Position numbers and translations under genes: made by a program
Origin: an uncultured Candidatus Saccharibacteria bacterium
Lineage (GTDB): Bacteria > Patescibacteriota > WWE3 > 9FT-COMBO-53-11
NCBI GenBank assembly: GCA_964512075.1
Contig: CAZEID010000006.1
Location: 1,024-65,023, forward strand
DNA length: 64,000 nt
Direction: 5' to 3'
Notes under the pieces: generated by a model
What the model was told of the DNA's origin: nothing
Seen by the model: only the letters and a program-made list of their open reading frames with translations
The model's database searches: none
Shown here: in pieces, positions 357 through 54,027 of the stretch
Position numbering within the stretch: position 1 is the stretch's first letter
Layout of the letters: each line of letters opens with the position of its first letter

Positions 357-436
357 CGCGCAACTTTCCTCCCGATTTTCCCCCGGCGACTTGAAACCTT
401 TCGTACGAAAGGTGCTACAGGAATGGTGAGTTAGTA

Positions 437-724
437 CTAACCTTTCCCCAGAACAGTCTCAATGATTCTTCTGACCGGGGCGGAAAGTCTCGGATTTAAA
501 AAGTAGAAAGTTTCCCCCTTCCTTTCTTCTCGCTCAAGGATTCCGGCATTAAACATTCGCCACAAATGCTTCGAGGTCGACCTAAAAGCCAACTCGATCT
601 TTCGGGACAACTCTCCAACGCTCAGCTCTCCTTCAGACCGAAGAAGCGCCACAATCGTAAGCCGGCGCTTGTTGGCGAGCGCCTTCAGGATTTTCTCCCA
701 ATCGCTCTTAGACACCTCAACCAC
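437..724 (-). CDS. ArsR/SmtB-family HTH transcriptional regulator
   Basis: 95 aa. HTH segment LSVGELSRKIELAFRSTSKHLWRMFNAGIL and an ...ERKGETFYFLN tail are typical of ArsR-family winged helix proteins. Confidence 0.5.
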   Translation of the reverse strand: MVEVSKSDWEKILKALANKRRLTIVALLRSEGELSVGELSRKIELAFRSTSKHLWRMFNAGILEREERKGETFYFLNPRLSAPVRRIIETVLGKG

Positions 725-763: not shown

Positions 764-838
764 TGGTGGACCCGGGGGGAATCGAACCCCCGATCTCCGC
801 AATGCGAGTGCGGCGCTCTACCGCTGAGCTACGGGCCC
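764..838 (-). tRNA. tRNA-Ala (anticodon CGC)
   Basis: Reverse complement folds as a 75-nt cloverleaf: acceptor GGGCCCG/CGGGTCC with the G3:U70 Ala identity pair, anticodon loop CTCGCAT, T-loop TTCGATT, encoded CCA. Confidence 0.8.
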
Positions 839-843
839 CAGAG

Positions 844-919
844 TGGTGGAGCGTAGCGGAGTCGAACCGCTGACCTCCTGCATGCCATGCAGGCGCTCTA
901 CCGACTGAGCTAACGCCCC
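844..919 (-). tRNA. tRNA-Ala (anticodon GGC)
   Basis: Reverse complement folds as a 76-nt cloverleaf: acceptor GGGGCGT/ACGCTCC with G3:U70, anticodon loop ATGGCAT, T-loop TTCGACT, encoded CCA. Confidence 0.8.
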
Positions 920-923
920 CATT

Positions 924-984
924 TGGTGGAGCCGGGAAGAATTGCACTTCCCCATTAAAAGTTCCCGTCAAGCGGGACAGCCCC
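924..984 (-). other. degenerate tRNA-Ala-like element (acceptor stem with G3:U70, D-arm and T-arm, CCA end, but no anticodon arm)
   Basis: Reverse complement GGGGCTG-TC-CCCG-CTTGA-CGGG-(12 nt)-GGAAG-TGCAATT-CTTCC-CGGCTCC-A-CCA. The acceptor pairs 7/7 including G3:U70. Only 12 nt sit where a 17-nt anticodon arm is expected. Confidence 0.3.
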
Positions 985-1015
985 GTACGGTAATTATAGC
1001 AACCTTCTCTCTGTT

Positions 1016-8957: not shown

Positions 8958-9701
8958 TCAAACTAACTCCGAGTAGCGCTCCTGGATCTCCCCGAGTCGC
9001 TGGAGCCGAATGGTCCCCTCGGGAACCTCATTAACCAGCTGACCATGGTCCCAAACCGAAGGGTGGGGAACAAAAACCGGCCGGTAACCGGCCCGCGCGG
9101 CCGGAACCAAGTCCGAACCAATCGAGTCCCCCACCATCACGAGGGGTTGGTCACGGTGGACTTTCCGGATCCGCCGAAGGGTCGGAAACTTGTCCCACTT
9201 AACCACGCGATACTCCCGTTGGCCGGGAAAGAACCGACCCAGATTATAACCTCGCCATTTCATCCACTGCACCACCGGATCGCCGGCAGTCACGCAGTAA
9301 AGAACGTCCCCCCGTCCCTGAAGAAACCGGAGGGTTTCCTCCGCCCCTGGAATCATTCCGCGACTCCGGTAAGTTTCCTCAGAGATCGCGGACATCCCGA
9401 TCTCCCACGTCCGGCGCTCCATCTCCGAGTCAACTTCCATCCCAAAGTGTTGGCAGATGGCTCGGTAGGCCTCTACCATTGACCCTGGCCAACGCTCCCG
9501 GTGCGCCCGCATCGTTTTGAAGCGCTCTTTGTCAATATCCCGAAGAAATTCAATGAACTTCAACAGGAACACTTCGTAGTGGGGAGCCTGATGCTCGAAG
9601 GCCGCAATAAAGGCCAGCCCCCAGCGCAGAACGGCCCGAGCGTAATCAACTCCCGAAGTAATCAGCGTTCCGTCAAGGTCAAAGACCCAAACGGCGCCCA
9701 T
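8958..9701 (-). CDS. HAD-superfamily hydrolase
   Basis: N-terminal motif VFDLDGTL (HAD motif I) and an overall HAD-like pattern. Confidence 0.6.
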   Translation of the reverse strand: MGAVWVFDLDGTLITSGVDYARAVLRWGLAFIAAFEHQAPHYEVFLLKFIEFLRDIDKERFKTMRAHRERWPGSMVEAYRAICQHFGMEVDSEMERRTWEIGMSAISEETYRSRGMIPGAEETLRFLQGRGDVLYCVTAGDPVVQWMKWRGYNLGRFFPGQREYRVVKWDKFPTLRRIRKVHRDQPLVMVGDSIGSDLVPAARAGYRPVFVPHPSVWDHGQLVNEVPEGTIRLQRLGEIQERYSELV

Positions 9702-9788: not shown

Positions 9789-9865
9789 GGGCGAATAGCT
9801 CAGCCGGTTAGAGCGCTGTCCTGATAAGACAGAGGTCCGTGGTTCGAATCCACGTTCGCCCACCA
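9789..9865 (+). tRNA. tRNA-Ile (anticodon GAT)
   Basis: 77-nt cloverleaf. Acceptor GGGCGAA/TTCGCCC, anticodon loop CTGATAA, T-loop TTCGAAT, encoded CCA. Confidence 0.85.
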
Positions 9866-10028: not shown

Positions 10029-10130
10029 TAGCGTATCTTCCCTCATCTCCTTTTGGCCGGTTATGCCAAAAGGCCTTATCTTCCGCCAAAGAAAGGCGGA
10101 AGAACGGAAGCTACGAAGTAACTCCTTAGA

Positions 10131-11690
<1,560 letters not shown>

Positions 11691-11716
11691 ATAAACGCGA
11701 AGCGTTTATAGCTTGT

Positions 11717-12284: not shown

Positions 12285-13352
12285 CTACAGGACTGGCAAA
12301 CTTTTAATAATCGCCCCTCCCAAAACCTCATTCTGCTTGTAAAAAACGGCGGACTGACCAGGGGCAACCCCAAAAACAGGCTCTCGCAGAACCACCCTCC
12401 GACCCAAAAGCCGCGCTGGCAACAACTCCCCTAAATGCCGAATACGAACTTGCAAGCCGGGCAGTTTCGAGGTCCTATAGCTCCTGGAGATCCAATGCGG
12501 TTCACCAATCAAAAACTCTCGCACTTCCGCTTCTTTCCCCCGTCCCACAACCAAAGTGTTTGAGGGCACATCCTTGCCAACAACATAAAGCGGCAAACCA
12601 GTGGGATTAAAGATTTTAAAACCGTGGCGTTGACCCTCCGTGAAAAACCAAGCTCCGTCGTGTTCACCCACTACCTCACCCTTAGTATTGACCACGGCCC
12701 CCCGCCGAATTGGCAGATTCTGGCGCAGAAACTTGGCAATCGGAATCGGTCCAATGAAGCAAACCCCCATACTCTCCCTTCGGGAGTAATTTGGTAATCC
12801 GAACTTCCTTGCTAAGGAACGGACGGTCGCTTTTCGAAACTCTCCAACTGGAAACAAAATGTGTTCAAGCTGCCTCTCATTCAATCCGTAGAGGAAGTAG
12901 GACTGGTCCTTACTTTCATCGGCGCCGCGAAGAAGGTGAAAGCCATCTCTATCACGTCTAATCCGCGCATAATGACCCGTAGCAATGTAGTCAACGCGAA
13001 GATCCTTAAGCGCTTTTTTCATAAAAATCCCAAACTTAATTTCGCGATTGCAGACCACATCGGGGTTCGGCGTCCGGCCCGCCTGGTACTCCTCAAAAAA
13101 ATAACTTATAACTTTTTCTTGGTACTCCCGACGCAAGTCCCAAACTAGGAGGGGAATCTCCAGATGCTTAGCCACTCGCACCGCCGAAACCCGATCTTCC
13201 TTGGCCGTGCAGTAAGGACCCTCATCGTAGCAGTAGAGGTGGACCCCAATCACGTCGTAGCCCTGCTGCTTCAGCAAAGCGGCGGCCACCGCCGAATCCA
13301 CTCCTCCCGAAACTCCCACTGCCACCTTCGTTTCTCGGTTTTTTGCAGACAT
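12285..13352 (-). CDS. mnmA: tRNA 2-thiouridine(34) synthase MnmA
   Basis: PP-loop SGGVDS, CNREIKF, ATGHYAR, KDQSYFL motifs. Confidence 0.85.
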   Translation of the reverse strand: MSAKNRETKVAVGVSGGVDSAVAAALLKQQGYDVIGVHLYCYDEGPYCTAKEDRVSAVRVAKHLEIPLLVWDLRREYQEKVISYFFEEYQAGRTPNPDVVCNREIKFGIFMKKALKDLRVDYIATGHYARIRRDRDGFHLLRGADESKDQSYFLYGLNERQLEHILFPVGEFRKATVRSLARKFGLPNYSRRESMGVCFIGPIPIAKFLRQNLPIRRGAVVNTKGEVVGEHDGAWFFTEGQRHGFKIFNPTGLPLYVVGKDVPSNTLVVGRGKEAEVREFLIGEPHWISRSYRTSKLPGLQVRIRHLGELLPARLLGRRVVLREPVFGVAPGQSAVFYKQNEVLGGAIIKSLPVL

Positions 13353-18308: not shown

Positions 18309-20885
18309 TTACAATCTTGCCCGGAGCCGGATCTCCTCCTCCACCTCCGCGGCGGGGCGAGTGTATTTCATCCGAGACTCCTCTTTAATCTGGGCAGCCC
18401 GGCGGGGATCTCGCGCAATGGCTTGAATCTGGGACCAGTCCGTCCGCATCCTAAACGGGATCGAGGGAACCCCATTAATCAACAAGCGGACGTAGGCTTG
18501 CCCGATGGCCGCATTGAGCAAATCCATCCGAGAGAAATCGGGGGAAACCTCGCTCTCAAGAAACTCGGCATCTTCCGCCCCAACTCGGAAAAGAATCTTG
18601 GTTCCCACGTTCCCAAAAACTGCCCGCTTGATATCTTCAGTCAGCTGACCAATAAACTGATTCGCCACAATTAGATTCAGCCGGTATTTCCGGGCCTCGG
18701 ATAGGATTTGGACGAAGTCGGGCGTCGCAAAGTTTTGGAATTCATCCACGTAAAGGTAGAAGTCCGGCCGCTGCTCTTCGGGTATCTCTACCCGCCCCAT
18801 GGCTGCTGTCAAAATCCGCGGCACTAAAATCAGCCCCAAAAAGTTGGAATTTTCCTCCCCAATCCTCCCTTTGGAGAGGTTCACTAATAGAACCTTTCGC
18901 TGATCCATTACCTCCCGGAAGCTGAAGGAGGATTTCCCCTGGCCGATGATGTTGCGCATCAGCTTTTCCGTCACAAACCGGTCGAACTTGGAGACGAAGT
19001 AGCCCAAGGTTTCGCTTTTGTGAAAGTCGGAAGTTTGAGCAAGCTCGTCAGTCCAATATTTCTTCACAATCGGATCCGTAATTAACGGGACCTTGCTAGC
19101 GGCAAAAACCGGGTCGGTCAGCAGGCGGAAAACTTCCACCAAGGTATTTTCCTTCTCGCTCATCGCTGTGAGCATCACATTCCGCACCGCCCGCTCCAAG
19201 CGGGGGCCCAAAATTCCGGTTCGGTTTGGATCATAAAGCTTGTAAAGGAGAGAAATAAAGGAGTTAATTACGAGATGTTTTCCTTCTTCTGTCTCCGCTT
19301 CCAAGATGTTGAGAGCCGGCGGCCGTTCTAAATCACCGGGATCGAAGTAAATTACATCGGCCTGGCGTTCTTTCGGGATCATTTGGAGAAGATCCTCCAC
19401 CGCGTCGCCATGCGGATCTACGAAACAAAGCCCCTCACCGGCGACGATATCTTGATAAGCCATAAACTTGAGCAACTCGCTTTTACCGGTTCCGGTCTGA
19501 CCGATGATGTAAGTATGCCGCCGGCGATCGTTTCGCTGCAGATAGACCGGTACTTCTATCCCCCGCGAGGACGCTCGACCAAGGTAGAGACCCGCAGTCG
19601 GCAGATCTAAGGGAATCGCCCCGGTTTTGGCCCCCAACCACTTAATGTTCGGCGTTGCTACCCACTTGTTGGGCAGGTGGAAAAGCGTCGCCAGCTCCTC
19701 GCTCGAAAAGACCGTCCAGTGCATAAAGCGCGGAACATGCCGGTAGAGAAAATCCACCATAAAGGACTTTTTAAAGAGGGCTTTCTTAACAGCAAAACCC
19801 GCTAGCTGTGGCGCGGAGAATTGGCTCAAACTGGTCACAATGCTGGAGAGTTGGAGATCGGCCGAAGCTTTCGTCGGCGCGACGGTCACAATCCTGATCA
19901 GCGCATAAAATCCGGGTTTATTGACCTTCCGGGCAATCGCTTCCTCAGTTTCCTTTCCCAGAACAACCCGACTCTCTCCCTCCGGCTTTCTCTCCATTTC
20001 TTTCGCCTTTAAAATGAAGGCCTGGCCTTGGCGCTGCCAGCTGGCGTCAGCCGGAGAGACCACAATTTGGATCACCGCCGCCTCGCCTTGGGCCAGCTTG
20101 GTTAAAGCGGAGGTAATGGTGTTAAGGGAATCGGTCTCTTCGCCCAAATCTACGTACGTCCTAATTGGGTAATACTTTGGTCCAGTTGTTACAAGCTGAT
20201 TAAAAGAAACGTACCCTTCTTTTTGAAAAATGTCATACTCCTGAACTTCCTTAATCTCGGCACTGGGATAAGCCGCGTGCAGCTGTTTCTCCACTAAAGA
20301 ACAAACCTCGCGAGGAGAAACTACCACAAAATGGATATGCTCGTGGTCCGCTATAATTTCGAAACTTAAATTAATCTGGGGGACCCCCAAGGACAGCGGT
20401 CCTCCACCCCGGTGGAGCCCCGCAAGGGAAGTGAAAAATTGCTCGGCGGCACCCGCCCGAATCTCGCTGTCCCGCGGCACCAACACCTCCAAAAAGACTA
20501 AATCGGGTCCGCCTTTCCGAGAAGCAACGGGGCCCGCCAGTTTCTGCCACTGCCGCTTCCACCATTCCCCCAACCAGCGGAAGGCACTCGTAATCGGAAG
20601 CTTCTGAGATTCCTTTACCTCCTGAACAGTTAAGGGTGGGGCAACCAGCCCCGGCTCAATCGGGGAACCGGGAAGAGAAGGCGGAGTTGGCGAGACTGGG
20701 GACGGCGAAGCTGGAAGGGAGGGCGGAGGAACGGAAGAGGAAGGTAAGGCCGCGGGACTCTCAGGAGCGGTTTCGGCCTCCTTGCCTACCTCCGACGGGG
20801 AGGGCTTTTCGGGAGCAGGAAAACCGGGGATTTTTTCGGGAGTACCGGAGATTGGCTCTGTTTCCACACCTCTATCCTGCCACAA
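18309..20885 (-). CDS. FtsK/HerA/VirD4-superfamily P-loop ATPase (type IV coupling-protein-like) with a Pro/Ser-rich N-terminal region
   Basis: 858 aa. N-terminal ~90 aa is low-complexity PAPEKPSPSE...PPSLPGSP. Walker A IIGQTGTGKSE, Walker B LYVDEFQNF, then LNLIVANQ. No TM helices are evident. Confidence 0.6.
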   Translation of the reverse strand: MWQDRGVETEPISGTPEKIPGFPAPEKPSPSEVGKEAETAPESPAALPSSSVPPPSLPASPSPVSPTPPSLPGSPIEPGLVAPPLTVQEVKESQKLPITSAFRWLGEWWKRQWQKLAGPVASRKGGPDLVFLEVLVPRDSEIRAGAAEQFFTSLAGLHRGGGPLSLGVPQINLSFEIIADHEHIHFVVVSPREVCSLVEKQLHAAYPSAEIKEVQEYDIFQKEGYVSFNQLVTTGPKYYPIRTYVDLGEETDSLNTITSALTKLAQGEAAVIQIVVSPADASWQRQGQAFILKAKEMERKPEGESRVVLGKETEEAIARKVNKPGFYALIRIVTVAPTKASADLQLSSIVTSLSQFSAPQLAGFAVKKALFKKSFMVDFLYRHVPRFMHWTVFSSEELATLFHLPNKWVATPNIKWLGAKTGAIPLDLPTAGLYLGRASSRGIEVPVYLQRNDRRRHTYIIGQTGTGKSELLKFMAYQDIVAGEGLCFVDPHGDAVEDLLQMIPKERQADVIYFDPGDLERPPALNILEAETEEGKHLVINSFISLLYKLYDPNRTGILGPRLERAVRNVMLTAMSEKENTLVEVFRLLTDPVFAASKVPLITDPIVKKYWTDELAQTSDFHKSETLGYFVSKFDRFVTEKLMRNIIGQGKSSFSFREVMDQRKVLLVNLSKGRIGEENSNFLGLILVPRILTAAMGRVEIPEEQRPDFYLYVDEFQNFATPDFVQILSEARKYRLNLIVANQFIGQLTEDIKRAVFGNVGTKILFRVGAEDAEFLESEVSPDFSRMDLLNAAIGQAYVRLLINGVPSIPFRMRTDWSQIQAIARDPRRAAQIKEESRMKYTRPAAEVEEEIRLRARL

Positions 20886-27378: not shown

Positions 27379-29139
27379 TTACCAGCTTCCGCCCCCGCCG
27401 CCGCCGAATCCACCTCCCGAGAATCCGCCCCCACCGAAACCGCTTCCCCCTTGGGAAGCCGGCCGGGAAGGGAGGGTTGAAACCAAGGAGTTCTCCATCG
27501 CATGAATTGAGGAAGAGAAACCCCCAAGGTTGAACGGACCCGGCCCGACGTACCAAGTCGGCGGAGGCGGTTCAATCCCGAGCGCTTGGAAAGCTCTAAC
27601 CCATTTGTCCACCACCCCAAAAACCATTGCGTAGGGGAGAAACTCATCAAAGCGGTTGATGCGCTCGTTGAACTGCTGTTGATATTTTTGGGCCGTGGAA
27701 ATAAAGAGCTTGAACCCGCTCGCCCGCCGAACCGCTTCCGTCCCTTTCGCGGTCTTCCGCGGCATCAGCGGCGCCGCCAGCATTGTCAACCCCGCCAACA
27801 CCGCCAACGGCACCGGCACCCACCCGAGCCCCATGCCGCCAAAGAGATAGAACAACAACCCCGAAACAATCCCTACCGCTACACCCCGGATTAGGTGCTG
27901 CGAGAGCACTTGATTCGGCGGCTGAGGAAAGTACCCTTTCTTAGTGAGGTCGGTGTAAAGATGCTCCCGGATCTTCGCCAACCGAAGGTAGAACTTCTCC
28001 TGCAAATCTGCAAGCGCGACCCGCTCTTTACCCAACCCGTCCCGACCGAAAATTCCGCGCAGGATCTCCTTCTCCCATTCTCCCAACTTCGGATCGTCTA
28101 GGAACTCCTTCTTCCGTTCAAAGAAGTAAGCGGACCTCCGACCTTTCTTCTCTTCGACAATCTTTAAATATCCTCGAACTGCTAAATCGACGATTTGGGA
28201 GGAGATATCCTTGAGGCTGACGCGCTCGTCGATCAGCGTGCCAATTTCTCCCGGGCGGAGATTTTCGGGAGGGTCAAACTCCACCACCACGGTCTGACGG
28301 GCGAAAAGCGGTTTGGTTTCGGCTCCCGCTCTAGGATTCAGAATCACCTGATTGCGATACCAAAGATCCCGCCCATGTTTCCACCACTGTCGCACCACGT
28401 AAGCCACCGCCGCCAATGAGCCTAAAATCAACCAATAGGGCCGAATTAGGTCATCCCAATAAACTGGATCCCGCACTAATCCTTTGGGAAAAGAATTTAC
28501 AATTGTGAGTCCTTCGCCCGGACTAAGTGGGGCGGTGGTAGCGAACTCTCCCCGCGTAGCACGAACCCTCGCAGAACAAGCCTGCGCCTGGGACCCTAAG
28601 GCACCGGTAAAACAGAGCGTCTGCTGAATATCCCCATTCTCTAATGAAACCGCGGCCGTCGCTCGGCGAACCCCCACTTCCCAGTCGGCCCCGGTCACAT
28701 TCCAATAGAATTCGTCATGGTCGTCGAACCGAGTAATAACCTTACCCACTAAGTAGGAGATTTGGTAGGTATGTCGGCCCGTGACAGTTTGGTTCGGATC
28801 CCCAATCCTAACCGTGGTGAAACCATCGGACGAGGTAACTTTGGTCTTTACCCACCTTCCGTCCTGCCGAACTGTTTTAAGGTCAAATCTAATCCCGGCA
28901 GTTGGGATCGTCCGAAAGATCCCGTGCTTTTGCAAAGGGCCGAAATCCACCTCAATCGTCTCCGTCACCTGCACCTTGCCGCTTTGGGGAATAAAAACCT
29001 GGGAATCAAAACTCTCAATCACCCAACCCTCCTGAGCTAAGGCGGGGCGGGGAAGGGCCAGGAGCACCAGCGAAAGAAAAAGGAAAAAGAAGCGTTTCAC
29101 CGGACCCAGTCTAGCAAAAACAGGAGCAACCTGGTACAA
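27379..29139 (-). CDS. DUF2207-type membrane protein with a Gly-rich C-terminal tail
   Basis: Signal/TM at the N-terminus, a large extracytoplasmic domain, internal TM helices, and a C-terminus GGSGFGGGGFSGGGFGGGGGGSW. Confidence 0.5.
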   Translation of the reverse strand: MYQVAPVFARLGPVKRFFFLFLSLVLLALPRPALAQEGWVIESFDSQVFIPQSGKVQVTETIEVDFGPLQKHGIFRTIPTAGIRFDLKTVRQDGRWVKTKVTSSDGFTTVRIGDPNQTVTGRHTYQISYLVGKVITRFDDHDEFYWNVTGADWEVGVRRATAAVSLENGDIQQTLCFTGALGSQAQACSARVRATRGEFATTAPLSPGEGLTIVNSFPKGLVRDPVYWDDLIRPYWLILGSLAAVAYVVRQWWKHGRDLWYRNQVILNPRAGAETKPLFARQTVVVEFDPPENLRPGEIGTLIDERVSLKDISSQIVDLAVRGYLKIVEEKKGRRSAYFFERKKEFLDDPKLGEWEKEILRGIFGRDGLGKERVALADLQEKFYLRLAKIREHLYTDLTKKGYFPQPPNQVLSQHLIRGVAVGIVSGLLFYLFGGMGLGWVPVPLAVLAGLTMLAAPLMPRKTAKGTEAVRRASGFKLFISTAQKYQQQFNERINRFDEFLPYAMVFGVVDKWVRAFQALGIEPPPPTWYVGPGPFNLGGFSSSIHAMENSLVSTLPSRPASQGGSGFGGGGFSGGGFGGGGGGSW

Positions 29140-42531: not shown

Positions 42532-44319
42532 TTAGGGCTTCCGTTGCTGTTCGAAAAGCCGCCGAATCTCTGCCACCGTAGTGGCCTGCTCCGGGGTCTT
42601 GTCATCCCGAAAAGCCATCAAGCGGGGGAAGCGCAGGGCTAGCCCCCCCGCAGTGTGTAATGGTGATCGGGTGATCTCGTCCGCCCGAATCGCCACCACG
42701 ATCTGGGGCTCTGCCCAAACATCGGGAGTGTGCTCCTTGGCTACCGCGACATTCTTAGGCTTGGTCCCAACCTTTAGGGCATCCACTCGGCGCTTCAGCT
42801 CCCGCCACTCCTCATCCGTCAACCCCGAGCCGACCCGGGAAATCGTCTTGAAAGTATCGGTCTGATCATCGTAAAGCCCCACCAAAAAACCCCCAATTCC
42901 GAACTGGGTCCGCTTGCCGCGTCCCCGGTAGTAGCCAAGAATTACCCCGTCAATCGTATCTTCCAACTGGCCTCTCTCTACCCGCTTAAGCTTAACCCAG
43001 TTGAAGTTCCGCACTCCGGCTTGGTAAACCCCGTCCAAGCGCTTGGCCATAATCCCCTCTAACCCATGCTCCACCTGTTCCAGAAAGAACTTCTCTAATT
43101 CCCCGGCATCAGTGAAAACTCTTTCCTCCGCAACCAAAATCGTATCGGGCTCCCGCACCAGCTTCTCCAGCGCCCGGCGGCGAGCTTCGTAAGGTTCACG
43201 CGTTAAGTCCCGACCGTTTAGGTAAAGCAGATCGAAGGCAAAGACCTTCAGCGGCAGATCCGTCAACTTCTCCCTAATCCCGTATTTCCGCTTGCGCTTA
43301 GCAGTTTCCTGAAATGGTTCAAACTCTTCGGTCTCGGGGTTATAGGCGATTGCTTCCCCCTCAAAGATTGCCGATTCGGCGGACAGCTGTTGGGTCGCCC
43401 CTACGATCTCGGGGAACATTGAAGTGGTATCCTCCAAATTGCGGGAAAAAATCTTCACCCAAGGACCGGAGATTTTTTCACCCCCAATTAGGTCGAGCTG
43501 CTCATAATCCTCCTCCTTAAACCGGCGGGACTTATCCAGGTGGACCTGAACCCGAAAACCGTCATACTTCGGCTCGGCCGCTAATTTCCCGCCCATTTTC
43601 TCCAGAATCTCAACCGGAGTCGGCAGGCGCTCGGCTGAGGCCATTCGTACCGGCACCCCCACCTCCACCTGAATCCCTTGCAGCCCCCGCACCCCTTTCG
43701 TTCTCACCAGCCGGGCGATCCGACCAATATCGGCGGAAATGTTGTAGGCCCGTTCCAACACCGGACGGAGGGACTTGTCCCCGGCTTCCACCACCGAAAG
43801 AGCGTCGAGAATCGTCTTATCCGAAAACCCCAAGCGCAAGCGTGCCACAGGGATTCGAGCGACATATTTTGCAGAGAGCGAATCCAGGGATCGGAAGAGC
43901 TCGGCCATTCCCCGAACTTTCCGCTCCTGCGAACCCGGGCCGGAGGTCTCGGCGATCTCCCGAAGCTTCCTGTAAACCTCCGAGGTTGAAGGAGAAACCT
44001 CGGAGGTTTTGGCTCTGCTTTTTGCCAGCTCCTCCGCTGCATCTCCCAGATCCCCCTTTTCCTGGACGATTTTCTCGACTTCTGCGCTCGGAGCCCCGTA
44101 GGCCTCCGCCATCACCCGAATTAGCGTTTTGCTGGCAAGATTGAACTCAACACCTTCGTAAAGCGGAGCCAACTGGCCCAGGACGAGGTAGCAGATCTTA
44201 TCGATTTCCTCCGGAGAAGACTCTTTCAGGAGCTCCGCGAGAACGGCGGTAATCTCCAACCGCTTGGAAGTAGCTTCAATCCGCGAAAAGTACTGCGCCA
44301 GCTTAGAAAAAAGCATCAC
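42532..44319 (-). CDS. ATP-dependent DNA ligase
   Basis: Motif I KYDGFRVQVH with downstream adenylation/OB motifs. 595 aa. Confidence 0.8.
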   Translation of the reverse strand: MMLFSKLAQYFSRIEATSKRLEITAVLAELLKESSPEEIDKICYLVLGQLAPLYEGVEFNLASKTLIRVMAEAYGAPSAEVEKIVQEKGDLGDAAEELAKSRAKTSEVSPSTSEVYRKLREIAETSGPGSQERKVRGMAELFRSLDSLSAKYVARIPVARLRLGFSDKTILDALSVVEAGDKSLRPVLERAYNISADIGRIARLVRTKGVRGLQGIQVEVGVPVRMASAERLPTPVEILEKMGGKLAAEPKYDGFRVQVHLDKSRRFKEEDYEQLDLIGGEKISGPWVKIFSRNLEDTTSMFPEIVGATQQLSAESAIFEGEAIAYNPETEEFEPFQETAKRKRKYGIREKLTDLPLKVFAFDLLYLNGRDLTREPYEARRRALEKLVREPDTILVAEERVFTDAGELEKFFLEQVEHGLEGIMAKRLDGVYQAGVRNFNWVKLKRVERGQLEDTIDGVILGYYRGRGKRTQFGIGGFLVGLYDDQTDTFKTISRVGSGLTDEEWRELKRRVDALKVGTKPKNVAVAKEHTPDVWAEPQIVVAIRADEITRSPLHTAGGLALRFPRLMAFRDDKTPEQATTVAEIRRLFEQQRKP

Positions 44320-48843: not shown

Positions 48844-50709
48844 CTATGACCTAGTATTGCGGGCATCTTTGCCCGCGGCGATCAGCCGCTGAAACTCTTC
48901 CTCCTCCAGAGTTTCCTTCTCCAGGAGAGCGGCGGCAACCCGATCCAGCTTAACCCGATTCTTGCTCAAGAGCTTCTTTGCTTGAGCATAGGCGGCATTC
49001 AAAATCCGCATTACTTCTCGATCAACGCGGTTAGAAGTTTCCTCCGAAAGGTAGTTGCCCGGCTCCCGCAGAACTCCATACCACTCCATCTCACCAAAAG
49101 TGAGCGAAACTGGCCCCAAACTGGACATCCCAAGCTCGGAAACCATTCTCCGCGCGATCGCGGTTGCCTGGGCCAAATCGGAGGAGGCACCCGCACTAAA
49201 CTCGTTGAAGATTAGCTCTTCAGCCGCCCGACCCCCCAACAACCCCGTGATCCGCTCTAACAGCTCGGTCTGGGTGTGCTGATAACGATCGGCCGCGGGA
49301 GGGATCTCGGTATAACCCAATGCCAGCCCCCGAGAGACAATCGAAACGCGGTGGACTGGATCCATGTGGGGAAGAACCGAAGCCACGATCGCGTGTCCGG
49401 CTTCGTGATAAGCCGTCAACCGGCGCTCCTGGGGAGACTGCAGGCGCTTCTTCTCCGGCCCCAGCTTGACCTTAGTGGCGGCCTCCTCCAAATCCGGCAT
49501 TCCAATCGCCTTCTTGTTAAGCCGGGCAGCCAGAATCGCGGCCTCGTTAAGCATATTTTCAATGTCCGCCCCCGAGAAGCCAACCGTTCGTTTCGCCACT
49601 TTCTCGAGATCCACATCCGGCCCCATCGGCTTACCCCGCATGTGGATCTTGACAATGTCTTTGCGCCCCTCAATGTCCGGAAGGTCCAGCACCACCCGCC
49701 GGTCGAACCGGCCCGGGCGAGTCAAGGCGGGGTCCAAAAGCTCCGGGCGATTCGTTGCCGCTAACACGATTACGTTGTCAGAGGGGGTAAATCCATCCAT
49801 CTCGGTGAGAATTTGATTAAGAGTTTGCTCTCTCTCCTCGTGCCCGCCGGTAATCCCCATCCCCCGCTGGCGACCGATCGATTCAATTTCATCAATGAAG
49901 ATAATCGAAGGCGCGCTCCGCTTGGCGGTGTCAAAAAGGTCCCGTACTCGGGCCGCTCCCACTCCGACTAGCATCTCCATAAACTCTGAGCCCGACATCG
50001 AGTAGAACGGAACATGGGCCTCCCCCGCTACCGCCCGCGCTAAAAGGGTCTTCCCGGTTCCGGCCGGACCAACCAGCAACACTCCCTTCGGAATCCGCGC
50101 CCCCAAGGCACGGTACTTGCCCGGATTTTTGAGAAAATCCACCACCTCCAGCAGCTCTTGCTTAGCCTCGTCCACGCCAGCCACATCGTTGAAAGTCACC
50201 CCCGGCTTCCGCCCCCGCTCAAAAAGAACTGCCCGAGAGCGGCCGAAAGAAAGAATATCCGCCGTCCCGCCGCGGGCTTGCCGAATGAAATAGAAAAAGA
50301 TTAAAGCAATCAGAAAGACCGGAAGCAGACTTAACAGAATATCTCCCCAAGGCAACCCCTCGGCCACAACCACGCCGTCGGGGATGGAAGCGGGATCCGC
50401 CCCCGCCTGACTAAGAGTGGCGAGGAAGTCGGTCGCAACCTCCCGGCGGGAAACAATTTCTTCCCCCGAATTGAGCGTCACCGTTAGTTGGTTTCCGTTG
50501 ACCACGACTTGCCGAACCTCGCCGTTCTTGATTTTCGTAATCACTTGGGAGATCGGCAATTCGGTTGGTCGAGAAATAGGAACCAGAAAAGACCAAGCCA
50601 CTAAACCAATGAGCGCTAAAACTAGCAGAGTTTGCCAAAAATTGAATCGAGGCGGGGGCGGAGACATCGGGGCCGGCCGCATTTTTTGGGGGAACCGGTA
50701 TCGTTCCAT
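48844..50709 (-). CDS. ftsH: ATP-dependent zinc metalloprotease FtsH
   Basis: AAA Walker [18 protein letters not shown] zinc site. Start trimmed to an internal Met to avoid overlap with trpS. Confidence 0.85.
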
Positions 50710-50713
50710 AAAT

Positions 50714-51727
50714 TTACTCAATCCCAATTGCCTCCCTAACTTGGGACAATGTTTTTTGGGCAATTGGCAAAACTTTTCTCCTGCCTTCCTCCAGAATCTT
50801 ATCTAAGTTAGCATCTTTGGCAAGCTTTTGTCGCCGATCCCGAATCGGATCCAAGAAGTCGTTCAAAACCTGGGCGAGATATTCCTTCACTTCCACATCT
50901 CCAATCGCTCCCCTTTGGTAGCGCTCTTTTAGCTCTTCTACCCGAGGGTGATTGGGATCGAACGCGTCTAGGTAGGCAAAAACCGGATTCCCCTCCAGGT
51001 GCCCAGGATCGGTTGAGCGAATTCGGGAGGGATCGGTATACATTCGCCGGACCTTCTCCCGAACTTCTCCCTCGCTATCGGAGAGCATAATCGCGTTGCC
51101 GAGAGACTTGCTCATTTTGGCCTTCCCATCGATCCCGGGCAAAACTTCGCCTCGGATCAAAGCCTCCGGCACCGGAAAAACCGCACCAAAGTTCCGATTG
51201 AAATCCCGAATAATTTCCCGAGTTACCTCCAAGTGGGAAGCCTGATCCCTCCCCACCGGCACTAACTCTCCCTTAACCAACGCGATATCCGCCGCTTGAA
51301 GAACCGGGTAGCCCAAAAGTCCAAAGGAGGGCTGGGCAATCTTCTCATCGCGCATTACTTCTTTAAGAGTCGGAACCCGCCCGAGGCGGGGAACGGTCAC
51401 TAACATCCCGAAGAGGAGAGCGAGCTCGGCGACTTGGGGCACGTCGGATTGGCGGTAGAAAGTGGCCTTTTCGGGGTCGAGACCGACGGACAGGTAATCG
51501 AGCAGCAGCGCGCGGGTGTACTCTTTGATTCGGGCGGTTTTCTCCCGGCTGATTCCCCGAGTCAGGGTGTGGTAATCGGCAATTAGAATGAAAACCTCGG
51601 CCTGTCCCTGTAATTCCAAGCGGGCTTTCAGACTCCCAACATAGTGGCCCAAATGAAGGGGCCCGGTCGGTCGGTCGCCGGTCAAAACTCTTTTACCTAT
51701 CCCGAGAAAAGCCGAGGGATTAGCCAT
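50714..51727 (-). CDS. trpS: tryptophan--tRNA ligase
   Basis: HIGH-type motif PTGPLHLGH and KMSKS. Start at MANPSAF. Confidence 0.85.
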   Translation of the reverse strand: MANPSAFLGIGKRVLTGDRPTGPLHLGHYVGSLKARLELQGQAEVFILIADYHTLTRGISREKTARIKEYTRALLLDYLSVGLDPEKATFYRQSDVPQVAELALLFGMLVTVPRLGRVPTLKEVMRDEKIAQPSFGLLGYPVLQAADIALVKGELVPVGRDQASHLEVTREIIRDFNRNFGAVFPVPEALIRGEVLPGIDGKAKMSKSLGNAIMLSDSEGEVREKVRRMYTDPSRIRSTDPGHLEGNPVFAYLDAFDPNHPRVEELKERYQRGAIGDVEVKEYLAQVLNDFLDPIRDRRQKLAKDANLDKILEEGRRKVLPIAQKTLSQVREAIGIE

Positions 51728-51857
51728 AACAGAGAAATGATAACACTCATTTAATAGGCGGGAGAAGCGAACCGAGTGAGAAAAATAAAACAACGGGTGG
51801 TTTGCCGTCCGAAGCCCTGGCGAAGGGTGCTCACAAACGGAGCGATCGATCGGCGCT

Positions 51858-51932
51858 TGGTGGCGACGGGAGGATTCGAACCTCCGACCTAAGCTTTATG
51901 AGGGCTCCGCTCTACCCCTGAGCTACGTCGCC
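51858..51932 (-). tRNA. tRNA-Met (anticodon CAT), elongator-like with a G1:C72 pair
   Basis: 75-nt cloverleaf. Acceptor GGCGACG/CGTCGCC, anticodon loop CTCATAA, T-loop TTCGAAT, CCA encoded. Confidence 0.8.
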
Positions 51933-51990
51933 GACAGCCGGGTACCAGATCTACGAAGGCCGATCCTTCCGAAGCTTTGGCGAAGGAGAG

Positions 51991-52065
51991 TGGTTGCGGG
52001 CCCTGGAATTGAACCAGGTCCTCGTGGTTATGGGCCACGCGTGGTAACCGTTCCACCAGCCCGCT
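51991..52065 (-). tRNA. tRNA with anticodon CAT and a mismatched 1:72 position (candidate initiator tRNA; Ile2/lysidine type not excluded)
   Basis: 75-nt cloverleaf. Acceptor AGCGGGC/GCCCGCA with A1xA72, anticodon stem CGTGG/CCACG, loop CCCATAA, T-loop TTCAATT, CCA encoded. Confidence 0.7.
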
Positions 52066-53951: not shown

Positions 53952-54027
53952 TGGTGGGCACCCCTGGATTCGAACCAGGAACCCCCAAGGTATAAGCTTG
54001 GTGCTCTAACCATTAAGCTAGGTGCCC
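53952..54027 (-). tRNA. tRNA-Ile (anticodon TAT)
   Basis: 76-nt cloverleaf. Acceptor GGGCACC/GGTGCCC, anticodon stem CCAAG/CTTGG with loop CTTATAC (UAU), T-loop TTCGAAT, CCA encoded. Confidence 0.75.

What the first reader, a model, noticed from the sequence alone, without database searches (positions are those of the whole stretch)
764..984. Tandem tRNA-Ala(CGC)/tRNA-Ala(GGC) followed by a third, anticodon-arm-less Ala-like minihelix element
Both Ala tRNAs carry the G3:U70 identity pair. A third 61-nt element immediately follows. It has a perfectly pairing 7-bp acceptor stem that again includes G3:U70, a D-arm, a T-arm (GGAAG-TGCAATT-CTTCC) and an encoded CCA. Only 12 nt replace the anticodon arm. 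It may be a decaying third tRNA-Ala copy or a tRNA-like minihelix. Minihelices with G3:U70 can be charged by AlaRS.
Basis: partly seen in the sequence, partly recalled or inferred. Interest (0 to 1): 0.5.

Follow-up and report, generated by a model that had tools for sequence, protein, structure and literature searches.

The report
Anticodon-less alanine tRNA-like RNA gene
A conserved 61-base gene at the head of a two-gene alanine-tRNA operon in a candidate-division WWE3 bacterium encodes a tRNA-like RNA with alanine identity marks but no anticodon arm; it is most likely a ribosome-rescue RNA (tmRNA) stripped to its tRNA-like part, a form already listed for a sister species.

Summary
All three RNAs lie on the minus strand, so the 61-nt element (984→924) comes first in the operon, not last: TGnTATAAT promoter, element, tRNA-Ala(GGC), tRNA-Ala(CGC).

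It is not a decaying tRNA copy. I found 13 distinct versions in WWE3 genomes and metagenomes, always with a TATAAT upstream and always ahead of the tRNA-Ala pair. The acceptor stem (G3:U70, U6:G67) never varies. Four of the five pairs of the central hairpin show compensatory double changes. The element is at least as conserved as the neighbouring tRNAs.

No tRNA model detects it. Only tmRNA-type Rfam models touch it, weakly (12-23 bits; gathering score 47). A known tRNA-domain-only tmRNA from phage DS6A scores 43 bits.

The 2025 tmRNA database paper says that 9FT-COMBO-53-11 sp001772805, which appears from its name to be the genome of my closest relative locus, "may lack tag reading frames". 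That entry is probably this element, but I could not see its sequence.

Best reading (about 0.5): a tag-less mini-tmRNA charged by AlaRS. Untested: whether SmpB is present, whether a standard tmRNA is absent, and whether the RNA is expressed and charged.

Verdict: new member of a barely described known kind; moderate interest.

The parts
993..1001 (-). Extended -10 promoter element, TGCTATAAT (TATAAT at 998-993), 8 nt upstream of G1 of the element. It lies just downstream of the stop codon of the M23/LysM peptidase gene.
   Evidence: Read from the sequence. A TATAAT hexamer lies 8-13 nt upstream of G1 (usually 10) in all 27 loci, and it is the only conserved feature of otherwise unalignable upstream DNA (39% identity). 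The consensus scanner found no full -35/-10 promoter, so the -35 is weak. No transcription start has been mapped.
924..984 (-). The 61-nt anticodon-less, alanine-type tRNA-like RNA gene (probable tag-less mini-tmRNA).
   Evidence: Sequence. MFE and RNAalifold structures. My covariance model R1 scores 72-93 bits in 27 loci. 13 distinct sequences with covariation. No tRNA call by ARAGORN or Rfam. Weak tmRNA-family hits of 12-23 bits.
978..984 (-). Acceptor stem, 5' strand, GGGGCUG (G3 at 982).
   Evidence: Pairs with 934-928. All 7 pairs are invariant in 13 distinct sequences, including G3:U70 and U6:G67.
963..977 (-). Central hairpin at the D-arm or truncated-P2 position: UCCCG-CUUGA-CGGGA.
   Evidence: Four of 5 pairs show compensatory double changes (C-G/U-A, C-G/G-C, G-C/A-U). 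96.8% of cells are paired. Loop position 15 co-varies with T-loop position 45, U/U against C/C.
952..962 (-). The 11-nt single-stranded linker ACUUUUAAUGG that stands where the anticodon arm (tRNA) or the whole mRNA-like domain (tmRNA) would be.
   Evidence: AC(A/U)UUUAAUGG in all versions. UUUAAUGG is invariant in the 4 sequences found by synteny alone. In the metagenome hits it was required by the search pattern.
935..951 (-). T arm GGAAG-UGCAAUU-CUUCC with a non-canonical T loop (U54, G55, A58).
   Evidence: The stem is invariant or changes on one side only, A-U to G-U and G-C to G-U. The loop consensus is U-G-N-R-A-Y-Y.
924..934 (-). Acceptor stem 3' strand CGGCUCC (U70 at 930), discriminator A73 (927) and encoded CCA (926-924).
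   Evidence: Sequence. Invariant in all versions, although GCTCCACCA was required by the metagenome search pattern.
844..919 (-). tRNA-Ala(GGC), second cistron, 4 nt after the element's CCA.
   Evidence: ARAGORN. Rfam tRNA model, 67.2 bits.
764..838 (-). tRNA-Ala(CGC), third cistron.
   Evidence: ARAGORN. Rfam tRNA model, 72.5 bits.

Best explanation
The element is a functional gene for a small (59-61 nt) alanine-accepting tRNA-like RNA without an anticodon arm. It is most likely a tmRNA reduced to its tRNA-like domain, that is, a tag-less mini-tmRNA.

**Proposed mechanism.**
1. A sigma-70-type promoter (TGnTATAAT, 8 nt upstream) drives one transcript: element, tRNA-Ala(GGC), tRNA-Ala(CGC).
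2. RNase P cuts at each G1. The short 1-5 nt spacer is trimmed back to the encoded CCA. This releases a 61-nt RNA whose acceptor and T stems stack into the 12-bp minihelix that RNase P, AlaRS and EF-Tu recognise.
3. AlaRS charges it through G3:U70 and A73.
4. Because it has no anticodon, it cannot decode. With SmpB filling the anticodon-arm space, it would enter the empty A site of a ribosome stalled on a non-stop mRNA and accept the nascent chain on its alanine.
5. Because it has no resume codon, tag frame or stop codon, release must then occur by another route. Peptidyl-RNA drop-off followed by Pth, or an ArfB-type factor, are candidates.

**Shown here.** The gene is real. It is under purifying selection, its helices are supported by covariation, the alanine identity elements are invariant, and it is always promoter-proximal in the tRNA-Ala operon.

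**Inferred only.** Processing, alanylation, SmpB and EF-Tu binding, the ribosome-rescue role, and descent from tmRNA.
For: **Conservation.**
- 13 distinct sequences in 27 loci of WWE3 relatives. These comprise 3 other GTDB species representatives found by Rho synteny and 23 metagenome contigs found by pattern. All score 72-93 bits with my model.
- These lineages are diverged enough that their M23 peptidase orthologues are only 37-60% identical.

**Structure.**
- 99.1% of cells form standard pairs.
- 4 of 5 hairpin pairs show double compensatory changes.
- Shuffled and slid controls are clearly lower. RNAalifold finds the same helices independently.

**Selection.**
- The acceptor stem is invariant, while the acceptor stems of the adjacent tRNA-Ala genes vary at positions 5-7 in the same loci.
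- Element identity is 0.88, tRNAs 0.83 and 0.79, upstream DNA 0.39.

**Operon position.**
- TATAAT lies 8-13 nt upstream in every locus.
- The element is always the first cistron, even where the cassette is inverted or the tRNA order is swapped.

**tmRNA link.**
- The only Rfam families that touch it are tmRNA-type: RF00023 at 12-14 bits spanning model positions 1-374, and tmRNA_permuted at 19-23 bits. No tRNA-model hit is listed.
[quoted passage not shown] It lists 3 'Standard NoCDS' instances in Patescibacteria.
- Going by the names, that species appears to be the genome of locus L003, which carries the element.
- The paper's phase-2 method took the best Rfam hit in genomes where no tmRNA had been found. 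This implies that no standard tmRNA was detected in such a genome.
- tRNA-domain-only tmRNAs are known in phage DS6A, jakobid mitochondria and some plastids.
Against: **Sequence homology to tmRNA is weak.**
- 12-14 bits on RF00023, against a gathering score of 47 and against 43.2 bits for the DS6A tRNA-domain-only form.
- The tmRNA hallmarks are missing: a GUUCGAnUC T loop (here UGCAAUU), GGAC before the T stem, the GG-UUCGAC D loop, and helix P2a. These can be seen in the consensus of the RF00023 alignment.
- Instead there is a covarying hairpin directly abutting the acceptor stem, which standard tmRNAs lack.

**Other points.**
- In my understanding (not checked here) tmRNA genes are normally stand-alone. 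This element is always co-transcribed with tRNA-Ala genes.
- smpB was not found in the window or in any fetched locus, and its presence in the genome could not be tested.
- Absence of a standard ssrA in this genome is not shown directly.
- I could not see the database sequence, so its identity with the catalogued entry is an inference.
- How a tag-less, stop-less RNA would finish rescue is unknown.
Confidence: 0.5

Rival explanations
1. It is an alanine-charged tRNA-like RNA that is not a tmRNA derivative and does not work with SmpB. It might donate alanine to a non-ribosomal aminoacyl-tRNA-dependent transferase (Fem/MurM-type cell-wall enzymes or lipid alanylation). Or it might bind and buffer AlaRS or EF-Tu, being co-expressed stoichiometrically with tRNA-Ala.
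For: - Everything AlaRS and RNase P need is invariant.
- Everything that specifically defines a tmRNA tRNA-like domain is absent.
- The hairpin and the invariant linker form a lineage-specific module that could be a binding site for another partner.
- Obligate linkage to the tRNA-Ala operon fits a role tied to alanine-tRNA metabolism.
- From my own knowledge (not checked here): AlaRS charges minihelices, and some Fem-type transferases recognise only the acceptor arm of tRNA-Ala.
Against: - I know of no described natural example of such an RNA.
- No transferase gene is linked to the element. Its neighbours (M23/LysM peptidase, Rho, TPR protein, ArsR regulator) vary in arrangement.
- The tmRNA curators, who see many false positives, accepted what is probably this sequence as a tmRNA.
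Confidence: 0.28
2. It acts only in cis, as a structured 5' leader of the tRNA-Ala operon. It could be an RNase P entry or processing aid, or a weak attenuator: a GC hairpin followed by a U-rich run that controls read-through into the tRNAs. Under this reading it has no function once released.
For: - It is always between the promoter and the tRNAs.
- The terminator scan flags the hairpin plus ACUUUUAAU as terminator-like.
Against: - A leader would not need an invariant 7-bp acceptor stem with G3:U70, A73, an encoded CCA and a T arm.
- The hairpin has only 4-5 bp, and the U run is only 3-4 nt in most versions.
- Related WWE3 and other Patescibacteria loci have the same tRNA-Ala pair without any such leader.
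Confidence: 0.1
3. It is a decaying pseudogene of a third tRNA-Ala copy that lost its anticodon arm. This was one of the first reader's two options.
For: - It sits in tandem with two tRNA-Ala genes.
- Its acceptor stem is similar to theirs.
Against: - It is at least as conserved as the functional tRNAs across 13 distinct versions.
- The hairpin shows compensatory changes, and no version is more tRNA-like than the others.
- The hairpin, linker and T loop bear no resemblance to those of the neighbouring tRNAs.
Confidence: 0.03

Closest known systems
'Standard, no CDS' tmRNA entry for 9FT-COMBO-53-11 sp001772805 in the 2025 tmRNA database (Nawrocki, Petrov & Williams, PMC11915505)
   Same: - Going by the names, this appears to be the species of my locus L003, the closest relative found (Rho 86% identical). 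L003 carries the element at 9144-9204, 54 of 61 bases identical to the window's copy.
- It is described as a bacterial tmRNA that may lack a tag reading frame.
- Three instances are listed in Patescibacteria.
   Different: - The paper gives one sentence and no sequence, length, structure or context, so I could not verify that the entry is this locus.
- The window's organism is a different species.
- New here: the operon position, the promoter, the covarying hairpin, the non-canonical T loop and the wider distribution (13 variants).
Mycobacteriophage DS6A tRNA-domain-only tmRNA (JN698994, 28478-28560)
   Same: - It has an alanine-type acceptor stem (GGGGCCG/CGGCUCC) and a T arm but no tag frame, and it is under 90 nt.
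- A similar tRNA-domain-only molecule inhibits tmRNA in E. coli, perhaps by titrating SmpB (PMC4131195).
   Different: - DS6A keeps the tmRNA hallmarks: a GGUGGUCGAC D loop, a P2a helix and a canonical UUCGAUU T loop. It scores 43.2 bits on RF00023.
- The WWE3 element scores 12-14 bits, has a hairpin abutting the acceptor stem, a UGCAAUU T loop and an encoded CCA (DS6A has CUA).
- DS6A's copy is phage-borne. This one is chromosomal, in a conserved tRNA operon, and is absent from the viral collections searched.
Jakobid mitochondrial tmRNA and the ~65-bp plastid tmRNAs of Mallomonadaceae
   Same: - Natural tmRNAs that lack the mRNA-like domain and are about 60-70 nt long.
- They are thought still to help with non-stop mRNAs together with SmpB (PMC11915505).
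   Different: - They occur in organelles and are mostly circularly permuted genes.
- The Rfam mitochondrial tmRNA family does not appear among the hits to the element at E <= 10.
- Here the host is a bacterium and the gene order is standard.
Standard bacterial tmRNA (SsrA, RF00023)
   Same: G1-C72, G2-C71, G3:U70, A73 and CCA. A T arm stacked on the acceptor stem. No anticodon. The 5' GGGGCUG and 3' GCUCCACCA ends are like the family consensus.
   Different: - No resume codon, tag reading frame, stop codon, pseudoknots or P2 helix.
- An 11-nt linker stands in place of about 300 nt.
- Scores far below the gathering threshold.
Synthetic tRNA-Ala minihelices and microhelices charged by AlaRS (Francklyn & Schimmel 1989; from my own knowledge)
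   Same: An acceptor-T stem stack with G3:U70 and A73 is sufficient for alanylation. The element contains exactly this.
   Different: Those are laboratory constructs. This is a natural, conserved gene with an additional conserved hairpin and linker.

Membership tests
Canonical tRNA (RF00005) | Cloverleaf with an anticodon arm and a 7-nt anticodon loop | tested here: not met
   Only an 11-nt single-stranded linker lies between the hairpin and the T arm.
Canonical tRNA (RF00005) | Detected by tRNA covariance model or ARAGORN at normal thresholds | tested here: not met
   No RF00005 hit is listed even at E <= 10. ARAGORN does not call it at default or at -ps60. Only the mitochondrial mode with -ps80 calls it, among 13 spurious calls.
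Canonical tRNA (RF00005) | Conserved D-loop and T-loop residues (A14, G18G19, U54-psi55-C56) | tested here: not met
   The hairpin loop is CUUGA, CUCGA or CCAGA. The T loop is U-G-N-R-A-Y-Y.
tmRNA, standard form (RF00023) | tRNA-Ala-like acceptor stem with G3:U70, A73 and CCA, and no anticodon | tested here: met
   Invariant in 13 distinct sequences.
tmRNA, standard form (RF00023) | mRNA-like domain with resume codon, tag reading frame and stop codon | tested here: not met
   There are only 11 nt between the hairpin and the T arm, so there is no room for a frame.
tmRNA, standard form (RF00023) | P2 helix and pseudoknots | tested here: not met
   Absent. The whole RNA is 59-61 nt.
tmRNA, standard form (RF00023) | Covariance-model score at or above the gathering score (47 bits) | tested here: not met
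   12.1-13.8 bits in five versions. No hit at gathering threshold in the window.
tmRNA, standard form (RF00023) | Canonical tRNA-like-domain motifs: GUUCGAnUC T loop, GGAC 5' of the T stem, GG-UUCGAC D loop | tested here: not met
   The T loop is UGCAAUU and AAUGG precedes the T stem. Only a partial U(C/U)GAC resemblance sits inside the hairpin.
tmRNA (any form) | Dedicated partner SmpB encoded in the same genome | not testable with these tools
   tblastn with E. coli SmpB found nothing in the window or in 1.1 Mb of loci. A protein search with Bacillus SmpB returned only Bacillaceae.
tRNA-domain-only / CDS-less tmRNA variants (DS6A phage, organelles, 9FT-COMBO-53-11) | [quoted passage not shown] | tested here: met
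   59-61 nt with an 11-nt linker.
tRNA-domain-only / CDS-less tmRNA variants | Closer in sequence to tmRNA than to tRNA | tested here: inconclusive
   Only tmRNA-type models hit it, but all below threshold (12-23 bits). DS6A scores 43 bits. My own model scores DS6A (20 bits) no better than it scores true tRNA-Ala genes (17-27 bits).
tRNA-domain-only / CDS-less tmRNA variants | No standard tmRNA elsewhere in the genome | not testable with these tools
   Indirect only. The 2025 database lists the sister species as possibly lacking a tag frame, and its phase-2 search was applied only to genomes without an identified tmRNA. There is no tmRNA in the window or loci.
AlaRS minihelix substrates (functional class) | G3:U70 in a 7-bp acceptor helix stacked on a T stem, A73, CCA end | tested here: met
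   All are present and invariant.
AlaRS minihelix substrates (functional class) | Actual aminoacylation with alanine | not testable with these tools
   Needs biochemistry.

The most novel reading that the evidence does not exclude
The element is not a tmRNA remnant. It would be a new class of natural, alanine-charged, anticodon-less tRNA-like RNA, co-expressed with tRNA-Ala. It would work outside SmpB-mediated rescue, for example as an alanine donor for a non-ribosomal transferase or as a regulator of AlaRS or EF-Tu. A less radical but still novel reading is that it is the sole tmRNA of a bacterial lineage, so that ribosome rescue there proceeds with no tag and no stop codon.
Probability: 0.25. 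Interest if true: 0.75.

Novelty: new member of a known kind. Interest (0 to 1): 0.45.

Why it matters
**If it is a tag-less mini-tmRNA.** A whole bacterial lineage (a clade of candidate division WWE3) would run trans-translation without proteolysis tagging and without a stop codon of its own. That pattern is otherwise reported only for organelles, possibly for the insect endosymbiont Nasuia, and as a phage form. It would make one question directly testable in a bacterium: how is a ribosome released after transfer of the nascent chain to a tRNA-like domain alone?

**If it is not a tmRNA.** It would be a natural counterpart of the synthetic AlaRS minihelix substrates, with unknown cellular use.

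**For annotation.** Standard annotation tools miss it. It should be annotated in Patescibacteria genomes, and its absence from tRNA and tmRNA calls should not be read as loss of the rescue system.

Tried and rejected
- **Permuted (two-piece) tmRNA.** The tmRNA_permuted model reaches 23 bits partly because the next gene starts with GGGGC. That gene is a bona fide tRNA-Ala(GGC) at 67 bits, so this reading is rejected.
- **ARAGORN at relaxed thresholds and in tmRNA mode.** No credible call. A mitochondrial-mode 'mtRNA-His' call on exactly these coordinates sits among 13 spurious ones.
- **smpB or a standard tmRNA in the window and all fetched loci.** Searched with tblastn, ARAGORN -m and Rfam at gathering threshold. 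None was found, but only a small part of any genome was available.
- **Reaching a WWE3 SmpB through the protein database.** Only Bacillaceae were returned, so I abandoned this route.
- **Phage origin.** blastn against phages gave only chance 28-nt matches. The pattern scan of viral contigs gave 2 hits that the covariance model rejects.
- **Other divergent anticodon-less Ala-type elements in 1.1 Mb of Patescibacteria and Chloroflexota loci.** The structural scan found only family members plus 2 obvious chance hits.
- **A UAA 'stop codon' in the invariant linker serving as a minimal message.** I considered this and judged it unlikely on geometry. This is inference: an 11-nt loop tethered at both ends cannot reach the decoding centre.
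- **Supplementary files of PMC11915505.** They do not hold the sequence table. Jacob et al. 2004 is not held in the library.
- **Pfam annotation of 36 window proteins.** No ribosome-rescue factor, AlaRS or Fem-type transferase was found.

Full report
**1. What is in the sequence**

ARAGORN finds tRNA-Ala(CGC) at 764-838 and tRNA-Ala(GGC) at 844-919, both on the minus strand. The Rfam tRNA model scores them 72.5 and 67.2 bits. Read on the minus strand, both have G3:U70, A73 and an encoded CCA.

The third element occupies 984→924 on the same strand:

GGGGCUG-UCCCG-CUUGA-CGGGA-ACUUUUAAUGG-GGAAG-UGCAAUU-CUUCC-CGGCUCC-A-CCA

- The 7-bp acceptor stem contains G3:U70 and also a U6:G67 wobble.
- A 5-bp hairpin with a 5-nt loop abuts the acceptor stem.
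- An 11-nt single strand follows, then a 5-bp T stem with a 7-nt loop.

Because the genes are on the minus strand, however, the element is the first unit of the cluster, not the last. An extended -10 box (TGCTATAAT, 1001-993) ends 8 nt upstream of G1. Only 4 nt separate the element's CCA from tRNA-Ala(GGC).

The MFE fold is the tRNA-like three-helix shape, but its energy is not unusual (z = -1.74). A purpose-built structural scan finds this one site in the window, against a mean of 0.07 in shuffles.

**2. Organism and relatives**

The neighbours on the minus strand are Rho (3673-2480), an M23/LysM peptidase (2308-1016) and an ArsR-family regulator (724-437). A TPR protein lies on the plus strand.

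The exact Rho protein occurs on two other assemblies whose DNA is identical over the part of the element region that each covers. A scan of species-representative genomes with Rho places the window in candidate division WWE3 (Patescibacteria). The best match is WWE3 RBG_19FT_COMBO_53_11, at 86% identity.

The tRNA-Ala(GGC)/(CGC) pair near Rho is widespread in Patescibacteria. The element is present only in the three closest genomes, L003, L004 and L005. In each it sits directly upstream of tRNA-Ala(GGC) and behind a TATAAT box.

**3. Family and covariation**

A covariance model built from three copies scores the four genome copies at 77-93 bits. Everything else in 0.9 Mb of loci scores 27 bits or less, and those hits are true tRNAs.

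One metagenome scan with a loose pattern returned 24 contigs, and 23 of them carry the element at 72-92 bits. Wherever downstream DNA is available the tRNA-Ala pair follows, after 1-5 nt in most loci and 22-60 nt in a few. In three contigs the order of the two tRNAs is swapped. In several lineages the whole cassette is inverted relative to Rho and M23. The element stays promoter-proximal in every case.

There are 13 distinct sequences. On their alignment:

- All seven acceptor pairs are invariant.
- The T stem changes only on one side (A-U to G-U, G-C to G-U).
- Four of the five hairpin pairs show double compensatory changes.
- 99.1% of cells are paired, and the shuffled and slid controls are clearly lower.

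RNAalifold recovers the same helices on the same model-derived alignment.

The element is at least as conserved as the flanking tRNAs: mean pairwise identity 0.88 against 0.83 and 0.79. The tRNA acceptor stems vary at positions 5-7, and the upstream 60 nt are at 0.39.

One caveat applies. The metagenome pattern forced UUUAAUGG, part of the T loop and GCUCCACCA to be present. Their invariance is therefore independent evidence only for the four copies found by synteny.

The M23 orthologues in these loci are only 37-60% identical, so the clade is not trivially shallow. A pseudogene is excluded.

**4. What kind of RNA**

No tRNA model or tRNA finder recognises the element. The only Rfam families that touch it are tmRNA-type, and all hits are below threshold:

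- RF00023 at 12-14 bits, aligned end to end with the middle of the model deleted.
- tmRNA_permuted at 19-23 bits.
- The cyanobacterial and beta-proteobacterial tmRNA families at 10-16 bits.

An alanine acceptor stem with a T arm, a CCA end and no anticodon is the definition of the tRNA-like domain of tmRNA.

The literature supports this. PMC11915505 (2025) reports CDS-less tmRNAs of about 65 bp in some plastids and a similar form in phage DS6A. [quoted passage not shown] Its Supplementary Table 2 lists 3 'Standard NoCDS' instances among 6765 Patescibacteria genomes, of which 5252 have a standard tmRNA.

Going by the names, that species appears to be the genome of L003. The paper's phase-2 search took the best Rfam hit in genomes of tmRNA-poor taxa where no tmRNA had been identified. 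That is how a 13-bit element would be picked up. I therefore think the element is already catalogued for the sister species, but the sequence table is not in the held supplements.

**5. How good is the tmRNA assignment**

I located the DS6A tRNA-domain-only tmRNA with my own scanner at JN698994 28478-28560. It keeps the tmRNA D-loop motif, a P2a helix and a canonical UUCGAUU T loop, and it scores 43.2 bits on RF00023.

The WWE3 element has none of these motifs. It has G at T-loop position 55 and a covarying hairpin that standard tmRNAs lack. My model scores DS6A no better than it scores true tRNA-Ala genes.

So these points are firm:

- It is a conserved, structured RNA.
- It has full alanine identity.
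- It lacks any decoding part.

These points remain inference:

- Descent from tmRNA.
- Cooperation with SmpB.

smpB and a standard ssrA were not found in the window or in any locus. That covers only a small part of any genome, and I could not reach a WWE3 SmpB through the protein database.

**6. Mechanism proposed**

1. Transcription from the TGnTATAAT promoter produces one precursor carrying the element and both tRNAs.
2. RNase P cuts at each G1, and the ends are trimmed to the encoded CCA.
3. AlaRS charges the element through G3:U70 and A73. It is established knowledge that minihelices with this pair are substrates (not tested here).
4. SmpB and EF-Tu deliver it to ribosomes stalled on non-stop mRNAs, and the peptide is transferred to the alanine.
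5. Because there is no resume codon, tag or stop codon, release must use another route, such as drop-off followed by Pth or an ArfB-type factor.

The first step is supported by the sequence. The rest is inferred.

Rivals:

- An alanine-charged RNA with a role outside SmpB-mediated rescue (0.28).
- A cis-acting leader or attenuator (0.10).
- A decaying pseudogene (0.03).

**7. Verdict**

The element is a new member, in a new species, of a kind that the literature mentions in a single sentence.

Added here:

- Its exact anatomy.
- The promoter-proximal position in the tRNA-Ala operon.
- The covarying hairpin and non-canonical T loop.
- A possible contact between the hairpin loop and the T loop. 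Columns 15 and 45 switch together, U/U against C/C, and L084 and L086 differ only at these two positions.
- A wider distribution of 13 variants.
- The weakness of its sequence link to tmRNA.

Interest is moderate.

Noticed in passing
window 396-413 and 728-745: Two perfect 18-nt palindromes, ACCTTTCGTACGAAAGGT and ACCATTCGTACGAATGGT, flank the ArsR-family gene (437-724, minus strand). None is expected by chance. The one at 728-745 lies between the 3' end of tRNA-Ala(CGC) and the ArsR start codon. They are probably operator sites of that regulator, and the upstream one could also stop read-through from the tRNA operon.
   Followed up: partly
alignment A4, columns 15 and 45 (window 970 and 940): Hairpin-loop position 15 and the last T-loop position co-vary as U/U (5 sequences) against C/C (6), with one A/C and one C/U. 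Mutual information is 0.68 bits, as high as for a true helix pair. L084 and L086 differ only at these two positions. This suggests a D-loop/T-loop-type elbow contact. The sample is small and phylogeny is not controlled.
   Followed up: partly
window 10130-11694 (-) and 9789-9865 (+): The 16S rRNA gene has no 23S gene anywhere in the 64-kb window. The nearby tRNA-Ile(GAT) is on the opposite strand, convergent with the 16S gene, so this is not a classical rRNA operon.
   Followed up: no
window 53952-54027 (-), 51858-52065 (-): There is a tRNA-Ile with anticodon UAU, which in my understanding (not checked here) is rare in bacteria. Two tandem tRNA-Met(CAT) genes lie next to a class-I Trp/Tyr-type aminoacyl-tRNA synthetase gene (50714-51793) and FtsH (48844-50763).
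   Followed up: no
L107 (phage DS6A, JN698994) 28478-28560: The known tRNA-domain-only tmRNA of mycobacteriophage DS6A is not annotated in the GenBank record. It lies between gp33 and gp34. It scores 43.2 bits on RF00023 and ends in CUA rather than CCA.
   Followed up: yes
L100 2785-2845: One metagenome copy of the element has two mismatches in the hairpin. Its 5' strand is of the CGCG type and its 3' strand of the GGAG type. This looks like a chimeric assembly of two strains rather than a degenerate gene.
   Followed up: no
L004, L005, L087, L088, L093 compared with the window: The RNA cassette (promoter, element, two tRNAs) is inverted relative to Rho and M23 in some lineages. The order of the two tRNA-Ala genes is swapped in three contigs. 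The element is always first.
   Followed up: partly
L017, about 12660-12700, downstream of tRNA-Ala(GGC): A T-arm-like fragment (GGGGTTCGAGTCCCC) lies in the spacer between the two tRNA-Ala genes of a MAG labelled Gammaproteobacteria whose Rho groups with Patescibacteria. It may be a tRNA remnant or an integration scar.
   Followed up: no
window 42532-44319 (-) and 18309-20885 (-): The window also encodes an ATP-dependent (archaeal/eukaryotic-type) DNA ligase and a TraG/VirD4-like coupling protein.
   Followed up: no
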